A stretch of DNA of 64,000 nt, taken from NCBI GenBank assembly GCA_964016885.1, contig OZ024743.1, forward strand, positions 334,180,001 through 334,244,000. The letters run 5' to 3'. The notes beneath the pieces were generated by a model that saw only the letters and a program-made list of their open reading frames with translations, was not told the origin of the DNA and made no database searches. The stretch is from Eledone cirrhosa (taxonomy: Eukaryota). Positions 2,409 to 58,451 of this stretch are shown here, one piece after another; position 1 is the stretch's first letter; each line of letters begins with the position of its first letter. Both the position numbers and the translations under genes were made by a program.

Positions 2409-2892
2409 AATATATAAACAATCATCTGGTTGTGGAACCAAACAACAAACCAACCGGAAATTTATAAATTCCTAAATTTATAAATTTATTATAATAAATT
2501 GATGTAAAAGCAACTGGTGCGTGTGTTTCTTATTGGCAACATGACCCTCCCAAAGTATAACAATATCGGTTTCAACACACGTTTTCAGATAAAGAACCTT
2601 GCTAAACAAATTCAGAAACGAAATATATATATATATATATATATATATATATATATATATATATATATATATATATATATATATATATAACGAAGGAAAT
2701 GTGGTAAGGAACCAGATGGACCATAACGCACCAAAGTACTCGATACTTAGGGTAGTAGAGTGGGTGATAGGAACGAGTAGGACCCCGACGGCTGAGCTCA
2801 AGCCGTTTCTGAGAATTAGCCGTCGAAACGGCTTGAGCTCAGCCGTCGGGGTCCTACTCGTTCCTATATATATATATATATATATATATCTC

Positions 2893-3807
2893 TTCCACTC
2901 ACTCACTCACTGTTTCTCCCCTTCTCACTTCACCCCGTTCGCGACGAAAACAAATTCCTTCTTTCTTACATTTGGATTCATCTCGAAAGTTCTTTTTTCT
3001 ACGCACTCATATATTCACCCAGCTTATGCTGACAGAATAACTATGTAGCTTGTGCCCTTCCTATCTACGGTTAGCTTTCCTCTTTGTTGTTACTTGTCTC
3101 ACTCGCTTTACGCGTTTTAATTGTCCTAATAACTTAATTTAGTTATTATTGCACCAACGTGAGGTATATGATTTTTAATGCAATGAAATATCTATGATCG
3201 TTGGCAAATCACTGATGAGGGACTCATTTTATAACATGTTATCCATGTGCAACCTGCAGTATTCTTCTCCCCATTTTTTCACATATATTTACCTAAACTG
3301 CGATTCTGTATTTCTCTCTCTCTCTCTTACTGCTCCCTCGTTCTCTCTGTTTCTCTTACTTTCTTTCACCCCCTCTGTCATGTCAGTTAACACTTTCTCT
3401 CTACCCTCTTCCTCACACTTCCACTCACTCACTCACTGTTTCTCCCCTTCTCACTTCACCCCGTTCGCGACGAAAACAAATTCCTTCTTTCTCACATTTG
3501 GATTCATCTCGAAAGGTCTTTTTTCTACGCGCTCATATATTCACCCAGCTTATGCTGACAGAATAACTATGTAGCTTGTGCCCTTCCTATCTACGGTTAG
3601 CTTTCCTCTTTGTTGTTACTTGTCTCACTCGCTTTACGCGTTTTAATTGTCCTAATAACTTAATTTAGTTATTATTGCTCCAACGTGAGGTATATGATTT
3701 TTAATGCAATGAAATATCTATGATCGTTGGCAAATCACTGATGAGGGACTCATTTTATAACATGTTATCCATGTGCAACCTGCAGTATTCTTCTCCCCAT
3801 TTTTTCA
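2893..3807. repeat. Partial tandem duplication, period ~525 bp (about 390 bp present twice), flanked by (TA)n
   Basis: 2893-3280 is nearly identical to 3418-3807; each copy contains CTGATGAG. Confidence 0.9.
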
Positions 3808-3904
3808 TATATATATATATATATATATATATATGTGTGTGTGTGTGTGTGTCTATGTATGTATGTATGTCTGTTTACGTGCATTGGGAGACGAGGTCTA
3901 AAAG

Positions 3905-4057
3905 TCTTCTTCTTCTTCTTCTTCTTCTTCTTCTTCTTCTTCTTCTTCTTCTTCTTCTTCTTCTTCTTCTTCTTCTTCTTCTTCTTCTTCTTCTTCTTCT
4001 TCTTCTTCTTCTTCTTCTTCTTCTTCTTCTTCTTCTTCTTCTTCTTCTTCTTCTTCT
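3905..4057. repeat. (CTT)n microsatellite
   Basis: About 50 perfect units. Confidence 0.98.
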
Positions 4058-54857: not shown

Positions 54858-54920
54858 TAGCTGTCTGATGAGGTCATAGCTGTTGATTAATGGTTATTAC
54901 TGAAATATATATAACAGCTA
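54858..54920 (+). ncRNA. Type I hammerhead ribozyme (family D)
   Basis: tagctgt CTGATGA ggtcatagctgtt-gatt-aatggttattact GAAA tatata TA acagcta; 7-bp stem I; element ends at (TA)n ~54970. Confidence 0.85.
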
Positions 54921-55599
54921 ATGTGAATAAACGAGGTTAATTTTAACCTGTTGACTTACACTTCTTCTTTATATATGTATATATATATATATATATATAT
55001 ATATATATATATATATATATATATATATATATATATATATATGTATATATATATACATGTGTGTGTGTGTATGTGTGTGTTTGTGTGTGTGTGTGTGTGT
55101 GTGTGTGTATATCTCGGGTTCAATCAGGGGTAACCACGGTAAGTAAGGTGCTCAATATATAGCACACTATACATTTTTAATATAGAAATGGCTTCTACAG
55201 GACTAGAACTGTGTCAGTCGAAGGAAATCATATACACACACACACAGACATATACATTCATAGGATGATAATGATCAAAATGAAGACTAGAAAATAATAG
55301 ATTCAGAACGATAATTGGATAATTCATTAAAATTTTATTTTCAAATTATTTCACTTGGAATTCTGTGTAGTTGTGTAATACATACGTAAGTTAAGTTTGG
55401 CACGAAAAAGAAGCTCGAAGCTGAAAAACTCTGGTAAAACGTCGACTGATATAATCTAAGATGATAGTTTTAATACATCAATTGTTTAGAGAATCAAATA
55501 ATCAATTATTAGACTATAAAATATTCTTACTCTAATTATGTGAAATTCTTCCTAATTTATCTGAGCCACATTAACAATACACAACAATCAAATATAGTC

Positions 55600-56280
55600 G
55601 TAAGTACACACACATATTCACACACACTCAAACATACATAGACACACACAGACAGACACACACAAACATACATAGACACACACACACACAGACACACACA
55701 CATACTCACACATACATGGACACACACACACACACACACACAAACATACATAGATATGCACACACACACAGACACAGACACATACATCGACACATACACA
55801 CACACCGACACATACATGCATAGTGACACACACAAACACATACACACATGCATGCATAGAGACATATACACACACAGACACAGACATACATATACACATA
55901 CATACACACACATACACACACACACACACACACACACACACACAGGCTCATGCACGCATACACACACACTCACACAACACACACACATACACAGAGACAG
56001 ACACAGACAAAGACCTACACACACAGACAGACACGCGCGCACACACACACACACACACACACATTCAGCCATATAGAAACAGAGATACACTCAGACACAG
56101 ACACACACACAGACATACACAGAATTACACACACAGAGACACACTGACACACACACGCATACAGACACACATGTGTACGTTCCCATAATTGGAGAACGCA
56201 AATACACATACAAAAACGTATATTCATACATACATACATACATACATACATACATACATACATACATACATACATACATA
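55600..56280. repeat. Degenerate CA-rich low-complexity tract and (TACA)n
   Basis: Direct reading. Confidence 0.9.
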
Positions 56281-58451
56281 CGTCATACCAACACATATAT
56301 GTTTGTAAATAGATCTCACTATCTACATAGCAGCGTATATATAATAATTGTTTCTACTTTTGGCACAAGGCCAGCAATTACCCAGTATATTACTGGTACT
56401 TTATTTTATCAACCCCGTAAGGATGAAAGGCAAAGTTAACCTCGACGGGATTTGAACTCAGACCGTAAAGAGACATAACTATGATAGAAAGCATGGCGTC
56501 CGACCCTCTACCGATAATAATACTCCTCGTTTTCTTACAATATATATATATATATATATAAAGAAAGAAAATGGAACGGATCTCCGTCGGTTTCGACGAT
56601 GAGCGTTCCAGTTGTTTTATCAACGGAACAGTTCATCGGAAAATATAATTTCTTTGGAAATGATATTTTCCCAAGATACCTCGCAGCAGGCTTGAACTCG
56701 TGAAGCAAATCCTTTAGTTATCCAGCCATATTGCGTACACAGTGGAACATATATATATATACACACAATCTGTACACACAGACGCCTACATATTTACATA
56801 CCAACAAATTTATCCTTTTTTGGCGGTGATGTATTTGGTTTGCAAGGTTTTGATATGAAATATCAAAATGTGTGGTGAAAAAGATATTGTTACATTTGGA
56901 GAGAGTCATGTTGTCCTAATATTGTAAAATACACTCACTCTATGGTTTGGTTTATATTTTTATATTTTTATAATTTTGTATTTTATTTTATTTTTAAAAA
57001 TTCTACTTTTATTTTTATATTCACTCATCTCTGTATATCTTATTTTGTTTTTGTTTATCAACTGTAAGAAGTACTAGATACTTGTCTGTCATGGCTTACT
57101 AGCTCTATACTGACCACTAAATTGACTAAATATGTTTACTTAGATCCCAGTATACACAAGGCACCACACGTTGATACTCCCCTGTCTTTACAATATATAA
57201 ATATATGTTGAATGGTTGTTATAAATATATGTTAAACAGAGTGTTGAATAATTTACTTTGTAGCATTTGGCTGTATTCATTTATATTCCTAGCTCAAACG
57301 GTGTTTATGTCCAATTCCTTTCATCTTTACAAAATATCGTTCGATAAAATAAATAATGGCGTTGGTATAATCAACCCTATTTCAGAAAGGAGTGTCCCAG
57401 CATCTCTCTCTCTGTCTCTCTCTCTCTCTCTCTCTCTCTGTATATATATATAGAGAGAGAGAGGTAGAACACTAGATGGTAATATCCGTAGTGGTAGAGT
57501 CCATGGGACGAGTTAGGTAGAAGTGGTAACACAACAGTTAGTTCACCATACCGAGAAGGTGAAACAATTCTTCTCGATATGGTGAACTATCTGTTGTGTT
57601 ACCACTTTTATATATATATATAATATATATATATATATATATATATACACATGCACACACACACACACACACACACACATATATATATATAAATATAGTT
57701 ATACTTGGGGAGGGTCATATTTGTGTAATATTGCCAGAATTAATAACAGAACACACTCACTGTTTGGTTGGTTTTCGCTTCTCGCTTCTGTGTCTTTTAT
57801 ATCGGTAATCTAATCTATTCGGTCCTCAATGTTGCCATTGACTGACCAACGGTCAAAAATAATACAGATACAATATAGACACAAACACATATATAGTTTA
57901 TCAAATTTCTTACGTTGCACATCTGCAACATCGTCAGTGGTGCAATATTACACAAATATGACTCTCCCCAAGTATAACAATATTTGTTTCGACACACGAT
58001 TTCATATAAAAAACCTCGCAAAACTATATATATATATATATATATATATATATATATATATATACATATATATTTATACATATATATATACTGTGTATAT
58101 GGGATAACAAGTTATCGTTATAGGTAATCCAGTTAGAGTATTCCGCATCGTGGATAGTTTTAACGTACGGCTTTGTTTGACTCAACAAGATGTTTCCATA
58201 GTTATGCAGCGAGTTCGCGGTATTTTCTATGCAGGTTATACTTGGAGTAATAATAGTTAAAGAATGAAGAGTAACATGGTTGGCTGTACAATAAGGGCTT
58301 TATTTAAAGTACTGACAATTGTTTCGTTGATCAGGTGTGTCTAGAGTTCGCTAATCGCTTGAGGTTGCGTCAATCGATCTCTAATACATTGTTTAAGACA
58401 TGACACTATCGTGCTTATATTTACATCCCTACTCGACTAGCATTCTAATAA

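What the first reader, a model, noticed from the sequence alone, without database searches (positions are those of the whole stretch)
2767..57610. Recurrent fold-back (palindromic) architecture of the microsatellite-embedded elements
Seen: at least 15 inverted repeats with arms of ~20-320 bp, at 2767-2867, 11985-12262, 18876-18989, 21411-21455, 32563-32878, 36125-36492, 40190-41100, 41495-41845, 42107-42183, 43811-43912, 44190-44540, 47175-47463, 47686-48582, 51380-51468 and 51880-52232. In many, the outer ends are an element 3' terminus abutting (TA)n, and about half contain an HHR or HHR half. Established: PLE insertions often carry an inverted 5'-truncated copy. Inference: both nicked strands of a self-complementary (TA)n target prime cDNA synthesis, or RT snaps back, leaving two short termini head-to-head. 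Any read-through transcript would form long dsRNA, a potential ADAR or siRNA substrate.
Basis: partly seen in the sequence, partly recalled or inferred. Interest (0 to 1): 0.75.

Follow-up and report, generated by a model that had tools for sequence, protein, structure and literature searches.

The report
Two-start twin-primed Penelope fold-backs
Most of these mirror-image DNA pieces are the cut-off ends of Penelope-like jumping genes sitting in TA repeats, and because the two arms almost always end at two different fixed points they were likely made by copying the element's RNA separately from each cut DNA strand, which would explain a long-puzzling one-sided 'tail' of this group.

Summary
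The inverted repeats are real: 34 in the window, 0 in 10 shuffles, and about 17-19 per 64 kb across the genome. Of the 15 listed, 13 are 3' termini of Penelope-like elements (PLEs) or PLE-like families. Two families are tied to Hydra-type ORFs; a third, unlisted one to a Neptune-type ORF. The two not of this kind are 21411-21455 and 51380-51468. One arm ends at a short site (S) and the other at a long site (L), 60-150 bp further out. This held in 42 of 42 typed pairs picked on the arm alone and 18 of 18 in a held-out sample (128 of 134 in a wider, partly circular count). S and L match the two RT start sites reported in vitro. In 24 of 42 pairs neither arm contains the other, which argues against snap-back and the published antisense self-priming model, and for twin target-priming. 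The architecture (inverted pLTR, one-sided tail, (TA)n target) is published. My searches did not find the one-S-one-L rule or the hairpin after each site in print. This scan has noted both before, here and in other genomes. dsRNA/ADAR effects are untested.

The parts
1..2622 (+). Family P1, Neptune-type PLE: broken RT + GIY-YIG ORF, 3' UTR, ending at the L site before (TA)n. Its inverted S arm begins in the 10 kb left of the window (L040) and ends near position 20.
   Evidence: L040 arm q-172..+3; PF01541 E 8.5e-6
2689..2867 (.). Family B (Hydra-type) fold-back: L arm with 80-bp tail (2689-2809) + S arm (2825-2864), (TA)n on both sides
11985..12300 (.). S arm at (TA)n with hammerhead core at 12076 (-) + tail-bearing right arm whose tail is cut short
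16373..17212 (.).
17252..17464 (.). P1: 13-bp tail-only inverted L arm + S arm; the arms do not overlap, so this is not an inverted repeat at all
   Evidence: (L142)
18760..18989 (.). Family D: L tail + short inverted arm + S arm with hammerhead 18850-18880, then (TA)24, then a further 31-bp S end in the opposite sense (the listed tail-to-tail repeat 18876-18989)
21412..21455 (.). 21-bp perfect hairpin at the 5' truncation point of another high-copy repeat; no (TA)n; not typed as PLE
32566..32948 (.). Family F: S arm left + L arm right with about 75-bp tail
35984..36492 (.). Old fold-back (80% identical arms): tail-bearing L arm left + S arm right
40169..41186 (.). Family G, about 420-bp hammerhead-bearing tandem unit (retrozyme-like): S arm left + tandem read-through ending near S (exception to the rule), then a further inverted L end; hammerheads at 40413-40443 (-) and 40869-40899 (+)
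41496..41950 (.). Family A relative: S arm left + L arm right with tail; hammerhead cores at 41584 (-) and 41757 (+)
42020..42183 (.). L arm left (87-bp tail) + S arm right; family with 1411 first-look candidates and a hammerhead core further in
43811..43958 (.). Family C5: S arm left + L arm right
44183..44703 (.). S arm left + L arm right with about 150-bp tail; hammerhead 44243-44286 (-)
47175..47540 (.). Family C7: S arm left + L arm right (79-bp tail); hammerhead cores in both arms
47690..48577 (.). Family C11, about 535-bp tandem unit: S arm left + right arm that reads through S, tail and L (about 48160) into the next unit and ends at S (S+S, exception)
51373..51469 (.). 48-bp hairpin in single-copy DNA, no (TA)n; not a PLE structure
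51793..52232 (.). Family A (Hydra-type): L arm left with 90-bp tail + S arm right; type I hammerheads at 51931-51979 (-) and 52133-52181 (+)
52532..52766 (.). 27-bp inverted family A S end joined to the tail-bearing end of another family; a possible two-family pair or a local inverted duplication
   Evidence: read by eye
57461..57607 (.). Family D: L arm left + S arm right
57692..58025 (.).

Best explanation
Most of the fold-backs are single insertions of Penelope-like retroelements into (TA)n whose two arms end at two different fixed points of the element (S and L), likely because both cut target strands primed reverse transcription, one at each of two internal start sites, and the two cDNAs were then joined at their inner ends. 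SHOWN: the arms are PLE 3' termini; outer ends fall at two fixed sites 60-150 bp apart; pairs are one S plus one L in about 95% of typed cases; inner ends vary from copy to copy; in tandem copies the tail runs on into the 5' leader and ORF; both sites are followed by TA-like bases and, in family B, by a bulged RYTC...GARY hairpin 6-8 nt downstream. INFERRED: the GIY-YIG nuclease nicks both strands of the self-complementary (TA)n; an asymmetric complex, probably a protein dimer placed by the two hairpins, starts one cDNA at S and one at L on a tandem read-through RNA; both stop early and are end-joined; each palindrome is built anew at its site and does not move as a unit. Whether one RNA or two is copied is open.
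For: (1) ORF link: family A arm runs into a 540-aa RT-GIY-YIG frame (L091) and family B has 2.8-kb arms with the ORF (L032); family P1 has PF01541. (2) Rule: of 120 loci fetched with an arm-only query, 45 had both ends typed, 42 after removing 3 duplicates, all S+L. Predicted and found in 8 of 8 typed long family B insertions out of 14 fetched and 2 of 2 typed long P1 insertions out of 6. Held-out 390 kb: 18 S+L, 0 S+S or L+L, 4 with an untyped end. Family-free count there: 36 asymmetric against 6 symmetric; controls 4.4 and 3.0. (3) Independent templating: the S arm reaches further in than the L arm in 24 of 42 pairs, the L arm contains the S arm in 10, and 8 are within 10 nt; 3 inverted arms are tail only. 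(4) Junctions: 12 of 42 overlap by 2 or more nt, 8 are blunt or overlap by 1, and 22 carry extra bases, as expected for end-joining. (5) The tail continues into the leader, with ATG about 93 nt past L, in 10 of 14 loci. (6) In vitro, PAc cleaves and extends both strands, starts RT at two internal sites that bound the tail, and is predicted to dimerise (PMC11167929). (7) Hairpin motif in 13 of 32 tail clusters (shuffles mean 1.4, max 7 of 1000; motif chosen after looking), and after both S and L in family B (each intact in 8 of 9 copies).
Against: Exceptions exist: 6 of 134 typed same-family pairs are S+S or L+L (partly circular), one more is borderline (L198), and two of the listed window structures are S+S (40169, 47690). 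75 of the 120 loci could not be typed at both ends. In vitro, PAc showed no difference in start site between strands, and that is a different clade. The test for a shared template was inconclusive: arms were closer to each other than to other copies in only 19 of 36 pairs. The hairpin motif replicated weakly in families new to the held-out set (2 of 10; shuffle mean 0.28, max 3) and is not seen in Neptune-type P1, which obeys the rule anyway. Junction limits come from BLAST and may have been altered after insertion. Only 3 families are tied to an ORF; the rest are called PLE by hammerhead core, (TA)n ends and S/L pattern. No empty site was seen.
Confidence: 0.72

Rival explanations
1. A self-primed or snapped-back hairpin cDNA with both arms ending at L forms first, and the endonuclease then trims one arm at the TA-like S site while integrating it (tail by EN-mediated resolution).
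For: Craig et al. ascribe the tail to EN-mediated resolution (PMC8557442). S sites are followed by TA-like bases. Trimming either arm allows both arm geometries and tail-only arms. Rare L+L pairs exist (L004, L080, L226).
Against: Both sites were mapped as RT start sites in vitro. 30 of 42 junctions lack a 2-nt or longer overlap, which snap-back priming needs. In family B the same hairpin follows both sites at the same spacing. S+S pairs are as common as L+L (3 each).
Confidence: 0.14
2. Simple fold-back: the RT snaps back on its own cDNA, or an antisense RNA self-primes (published hypothesis).
For: Near-perfect hairpins with tiny loops. Published reading of palindromic junctions (PMC3846280). 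10 of 42 pairs have the L arm containing the S arm.
Against: It needs one arm to contain the other, which fails in 24 of 42 pairs; tail-only arms cannot be copied from the other arm.
Confidence: 0.04
3. Host repair at fragile (TA)n: a break folds back and copies whatever lies next to it, so PLE ends are only bystanders.
For: Some repeats are not PLE: 51373-51469 is single-copy; perfect short repeats are centred on (TA)n (29940-29997; 19 of 175 repeats are TA-centred); 269-410 lies inside an ORF.
Against: Repair cannot add a family-specific tail that is absent from the other arm, nor give one S plus one L across many families.
Confidence: 0.05
4. MITEs or foldback DNA transposons with terminal inverted repeats.
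For: TA flanks; one true mariner with TIRs lies in the window (17789-18726).
Against: Centres and arm lengths differ between copies of a family, the ends are unequal, and the arms run into RT ORFs.
Confidence: 0.01
5. Assembly or amplification chimeras.
For: No read or contig was shown to span a whole fold-back. A few 100% identical palindromes exist elsewhere (L026, L275).
Against: Arms of the listed repeats differ by up to 21%, with indels. One fold-back carries a later SINE inside it (L080). A chimera cannot place a tail on one arm only.
Confidence: 0.02

Closest known systems
EN+ Penelope-like element insertions with inverted 5'-truncated pLTR and one-sided tail (PMC3846280, passages seen; PMC8557442, passages and section 11 seen)
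   Same: Head-to-head inverted copy at the 5' end, tail at one end only, partial tandems, hammerheads in the pLTR, (TA)n target.
   Different: Tails here are 60-150 bp against 30-40 bp. The tail is not optional here: about 95% of typed pairs are one S plus one L. The data go against the antisense self-priming hypothesis of PMC3846280.
Hydra clade PLEs (PMC8557442 section 11)
   Same: Families A and B: C-terminal GIY-YIG, CxCX5C linker, CxxC and CxH around E and N, (TA)n target; family B also has DKT and an RW-basic motif.
   Different: Family B is about 3.5 kb (paper: generally under 3 kb) and no canonical hammerhead was found in its 3' end. No tree was built.
PAc (Poseidon) of Anolis, two internal RT start sites (PMC11167929, parts 1-2 of 4 read)
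   Same: Two start sites bounding the tail at the pLTR-ORF junction; both strands cut and extended; uncleaved RNA used.
   Different: Other clade; no strand difference in start site in vitro; here the start sites lie upstream of the ATG and are 60-150 nt apart.
L1 twin priming (PMC2837659, search listing and start of abstract only; mechanism otherwise recalled)
   Same: Two target-primed cDNAs joined at their inner ends, giving an inversion.
   Different: In L1 the second primer lands at a variable internal place and the pieces mostly do not overlap (recalled). Here both start at fixed neighbouring sites and overlap, giving palindromes.
Non-LTR retrozymes as non-autonomous PLE derivatives (bioRxiv 10.64898/2026.07.22.740005, part 1 of 5 read)
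   Same: Families G and C11 are 420-535 bp tandem units without an ORF; G has a type I hammerhead.
   Different: Here they occur as short head-to-head insertions with S/L ends; long arrays and RNA were not examined.

Membership tests
EN+ Penelope-like elements | Single ORF with PLE-type RT and GIY-YIG endonuclease | tested here: met
   Families A, B and P1: RT and GIY-YIG motifs read; PF01541 for P1 only. Pfam found nothing for A and B. The other families have no ORF link.
EN+ Penelope-like elements | Partial tandems forming pLTRs, and an inverted 5'-truncated copy | tested here: met
   Family B partial tandems in 10 of 14 loci; inverted copies
EN+ Penelope-like elements | Tail extension at one end | tested here: met
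   60-150 bp, fixed per family
EN+ Penelope-like elements | Type I hammerhead in the pLTR | tested here: inconclusive
   Full fold in families A, D, G and 44183; core only in several others; none found in B or F. Cleavage not tested.
Hydra clade | DKT motif, RWK-like motif, CxCX5C linker, CxxC/CxH around E and N, no CCHH | tested here: met
   Family B frames (RWR, DKT, CxCX5C, CxxC..CxH); family A CxCX5C and CxxC; absence of CCHH judged by eye; A and B 35% identical
Hydra clade | Phylogenetic placement with published Hydra RTs | not tested
   No tree was built against the published sequences
Neptune clade (family P1) | C-terminal EN with CX2-5CxxC linker and CCHH | tested here: met
   Read by eye in the frame at 1237-2166; no tree
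MITE / TIR DNA transposon | Fixed unit with equal terminal inverted repeats copied as a whole | tested here: not met
   Variable centres and unequal ends
MITE / TIR DNA transposon | Target-site duplication | not testable with these tools
   Hidden inside (TA)n; no empty orthologous site available
Twin-primed insertion | Both arms templated independently from RNA, each from its own target end | tested here: met
   Neither arm contains the other in 24 of 42 pairs; 3 tail-only arms. The trimming rival is not excluded.
Twin-primed insertion | Both cDNAs from the same RNA molecule | tested here: inconclusive
   19 of 36 pairs closer within than between; directly joined two-family pairs were not found by script, one candidate by eye (52532)

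The most novel reading that the evidence does not exclude
EN+ PLEs integrate by an obligate asymmetric twin-priming step: a dimeric RT-nuclease is set on the RNA by two tandem bulged hairpins, one subunit starting at S and the other at L, so there is no ordinary second-strand synthesis and every insertion is born as two opposed cDNAs joined by the host.
Probability: 0.45. Interest if true: 0.75.

Novelty: new member of a known kind. Interest (0 to 1): 0.5.

Why it matters
How Penelope-like elements insert, and why they leave inverted ends and a one-sided tail, is stated as unresolved in PMC8557442 and PMC11167929. A near-strict one-S-one-L rule in Hydra-type, Neptune-type and non-autonomous families turns that into a sharp test for the existing in vitro system and weighs against the self-priming model in print. 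It also means this 3-Gb genome carries a very large number of short inverted repeats (about 17-19 per 64 kb of all kinds in my samples), which could feed dsRNA pathways if transcribed; that part is untested. The structures themselves are ordinary insertion products of known element groups, with no sign of a host function.

Tried and rejected
Rfam scan: the 150 matches shown (of 253) were chance miRNA-precursor and snoRNA hits below gathering score, none a hammerhead. Pfam found no family for the family A and B proteins or for four of the six window frames. Sequencing runs: no RNA holder listed. Laying contigs and RAD reads gave only short multi-copy pieces; no piece spanned a fold-back, so this is no evidence either way. 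Shared-template test: low power, inconclusive. First library-based count was discarded: microsatellite-ended tails gave false L calls; it was redone with trimmed references. Five clusters were left out of the library and three of 35 as not PLE-like; one search used 20 of 35 clusters. A pile-up of arm ends at the hammerhead cut site was looked for by eye in family A and not seen (inner ends). Searches for prior description listed no paper that states the one-S-one-L rule, twin priming in PLEs, or the paired hairpins. The library lacks most subscription papers, including the 2005-2008 Penelope papers that first described the tail. The supplement of PMC8557442 was only searched for four terms; its Hydra sequence files were not read and may bear on clade membership.
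Full report
OBSERVATION. A minus-strand self-search and local alignments confirm inverted repeats at all 15 listed places, with arms of 21-380 bp at 79-100% identity. With microsatellites masked there are 34 in the window and 0 in each of 10 local shuffles; at gaps up to 100 bp, 18 are inverted and 2 direct. The window is G000:C4:334180001-334244000 of a 3.0-Gb genome. That it looks like an octopus genome is my recall from its SINEs, not a test. 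The density is ordinary for the genome: 175 repeats in 664 kb including the window and 115 in a further 390 kb. These counts are BLAST segments and include some overlapping rows.

THE ARMS ARE UNEQUAL. In one search, 74 of 156 repeats not centred on (TA)n have an outer end at (TA)4+ (random placement mean 24.7, max 36 of 200). Only 9 have both ends there (control 2.8), while 49 have one end at (TA)n and the other 6-150 bp short of it (control 8.4, max 16). The extra piece is a family-specific tail of fixed length, for example about 90 bp in family A, 80 in B, 59 in P1 and 75 in F. I call the two end points S (short) and L (long). A fresh 390-kb sample gave 36 asymmetric and 6 symmetric repeats among 96 without inner (TA)n (controls 4.4 and 3.0; five of the six come from one locus), and 26 of the 36 fell into families already defined.

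WHAT THE ELEMENTS ARE. Family A (51793-52232) has 1181 first-look candidates. One copy has a 3.2-kb inverted arm holding a 540-aa frame with RT and C-terminal GIY-YIG motifs (L091). Family B (2689-2867) has a copy with 2.8-kb arms carrying the ORF (L032). Their proteins are 35% identical. They show the Hydra-clade marks listed in PMC8557442 section 11: DKT, an RW-basic motif, CxCX5C and CxxC/CxH; no tree was built. Family P1 (1-2622, 17252-17464 and relatives) has a Neptune-type frame with a Pfam GIY-YIG hit. A type I hammerhead descriptor finds 9 folds in the window against 0-1 in 20 shuffles; cores lie in the arms of 6 of the 15 listed repeats. Families G (40169) and C11 (47690) are 420-535 bp tandem units without an ORF.

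VERDICT ON THE 15. Ten are an S arm plus a tail-bearing arm: 2767, 11985 (tail cut short), 32563, 36125, 41495, 42107, 43811, 44190, 47175, 51880. Two are S+S with a tandem read-through (40190, 47686). One is tail-to-tail around (TA)n (18876). Two are not of this kind: 21411 is a 21-bp hairpin at the truncated end of another repeat, and 51380 is single-copy DNA. Six further S+L insertions were not listed: 1-2622 with its left arm in L040, 16373, 17252, 18760, 57461 and 57692.

THE RULE. I fetched 30 loci each for families A, B, P1 and F with a query from the arm only. Both ends could be typed in 45 of 120 loci; after removing 3 duplicates all 42 are one S plus one L, 3 of them the window's own copies (binomial 2e-13 against a 50:50 choice). 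One further locus (L198) is a borderline S+S. As a prediction, 14 long family B insertions were fetched whole: 8 could be typed and all 8 are S+L; one S+L and one L+L pair lay beside them. Two of 6 long P1 insertions could be typed, both S+L. A library built on earlier loci, applied to the held-out 390 kb, gave 18 S+L, 0 S+S or L+L and 4 with an untyped end. Other new loci gave 18 against 2, and the old loci (partly circular) 92 against 4, so 128 of 134 overall. No directly joined two-family pair with typed ends was found by script; one candidate is seen by eye at 52532-52766.

WHAT S AND L ARE. In 10 of 14 family B loci the L end runs on without (TA)n into a leader, with the ATG about 93 nt further. 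The tail is therefore the start of the next tandem unit. Frangieh et al. (PMC11167929, parts 1-2 of 4 read) show for the anole element that the protein cuts and extends both strands, starts RT at two internal sites that bound the tail, uses uncleaved RNA, and is predicted to dimerise. They saw no strand difference in start site. Tails often begin with TA-like bases, and 13 of 32 tail clusters carry RYTC 2-11 nt after S with its exact complement downstream, in three covarying forms (shuffles mean 1.4, max 7 of 1000). That motif was chosen after looking, and it replicated only weakly in new families (2 of 10). An earlier scan note suggested a second hairpin after L. I checked this in family B: RNAfold gives two bulged hairpins of the same shape, 8 nt after S and 6 nt after L, each intact in 8 of 9 tandem copies. 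Neptune-type P1 lacks the strict motif yet follows the rule.

MECHANISM. Any fold-back copy needs one arm to contain the other. In 24 of 42 pairs the S arm reaches further in while the L arm has the tail, so neither contains the other; 10 fit containment and 8 are within 10 nt. Three inverted arms are tail only. This goes against RT snap-back and against self-priming on an antisense RNA, the hypothesis of Arkhipova et al. (PMC3846280, passages). Junctions overlap by 2 or more nt in 12 of 42, are blunt or overlap by 1 in 8, and carry extra bases in 22 (four of these are affected by a short reference), which fits end-joining of two cDNAs. The best reading is twin target-priming from both nicked strands of (TA)n, one cDNA from S and one from L. 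The main rival is an L+L hairpin trimmed at S by the nuclease, in the spirit of the 'EN-mediated resolution' remark in PMC8557442; sequence alone does not exclude it. Whether one or two RNAs are copied stayed open: arms were closer to each other than to other copies in 19 of 36 pairs.

ARTEFACT AND MITE. Centres and arm lengths vary between copies and the ends are unequal, so these are not MITEs. Arm divergence, a SINE inserted inside one fold-back (L080) and the one-sided tails argue against chimeras. The available contigs and RAD reads could not span a structure.

NOVELTY. The inverted pLTR, one-sided tail, hammerheads and (TA)n preference are published. Seven searches listed no paper stating the one-S-one-L rule, twin priming in PLEs or the paired hairpins, but the library lacks most subscription journals. 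Earlier notes of this scan report twin priming in at least 11 genomes and the hairpins in at least 3, including this one. Those are unchecked AI notes and are not counted as support. The dsRNA, ADAR and siRNA suggestion is untested.

Noticed in passing
window 269-410: 69-bp inverted duplication (96% identical) inside the P1 RT frame, away from any terminus or (TA)n; looks like a templated repair insertion.
   Followed up: no
window 17789-18726: Internally deleted mariner-like DNA transposon with about 95-bp TIRs in (TA)n; Mos1 HTH domain hit.
   Followed up: partly
window 31524-32188: 330-bp-arm palindrome of a repeat with Helitron-like ends (CTAG then TC, labels recalled) meeting at a short G+C hairpin; the outer 180 bp are near-identical and the inner part about 80%. 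Not a PLE structure.
   Followed up: partly
window 19480-20325, 24110-24874: Inverted repeats made by tRNA-like SINE copies in opposite orientation; at least two have their own direct flanking repeats.
   Followed up: no
window 29940-29997, 18876-18989, 52203-52558; L026 1740-2061; L275 6005-8037: Perfect inverted repeats centred on or next to (TA)n, some in non-family DNA; a possible second class made by fold-back repair at (TA)n, or assembly errors for the long 100% cases.
   Followed up: no
family A, loci L001-L030: Inner ends pile up 176-186 nt upstream of S in 18 of 30 query-side arms (query-biased); 7 of 19 partner arms end at 165-185 and only 1 goes further. This may mark the 5' end of a pLTR transcript.
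   Followed up: partly
window 40169-41186 and 47690-48577: Short tandem-unit, ORF-less families (about 420 and 535 bp) that read through L into the next unit; retrozyme-like. Elsewhere they mostly give S+L pairs.
   Followed up: partly
window 53290-54383 (+): Another broken PLE (RT end + GIY-YIG) with a minimal hammerhead at 54265-54292, ending at (AC)n.
   Followed up: no
window 8982-11160 (-): Long A+T-rich element end with a compact hammerhead core at 9040-9064, abutting (TA)n.
   Followed up: no
window 36540-38600 (-) and about 12400-13900 (-): Broken non-LTR (L1/Tx1-like, label recalled) RT fragments; the second begins shortly after the cut-short tail of the 11985 fold-back.
   Followed up: no
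window 45122-45209 / 45846-45933: 88-bp inverted copy of the end of a young high-copy repeat (97% identical copies), set between two (TA)n runs 640 bp away.
   Followed up: no
window 50486-50795 and 9863-10050: Tandem repeats of 41/82 bp and 96 bp.
   Followed up: no
L080 8378-9083: L+L fold-back of a family A relative with a SINE inserted in one arm between short direct repeats.
   Followed up: no
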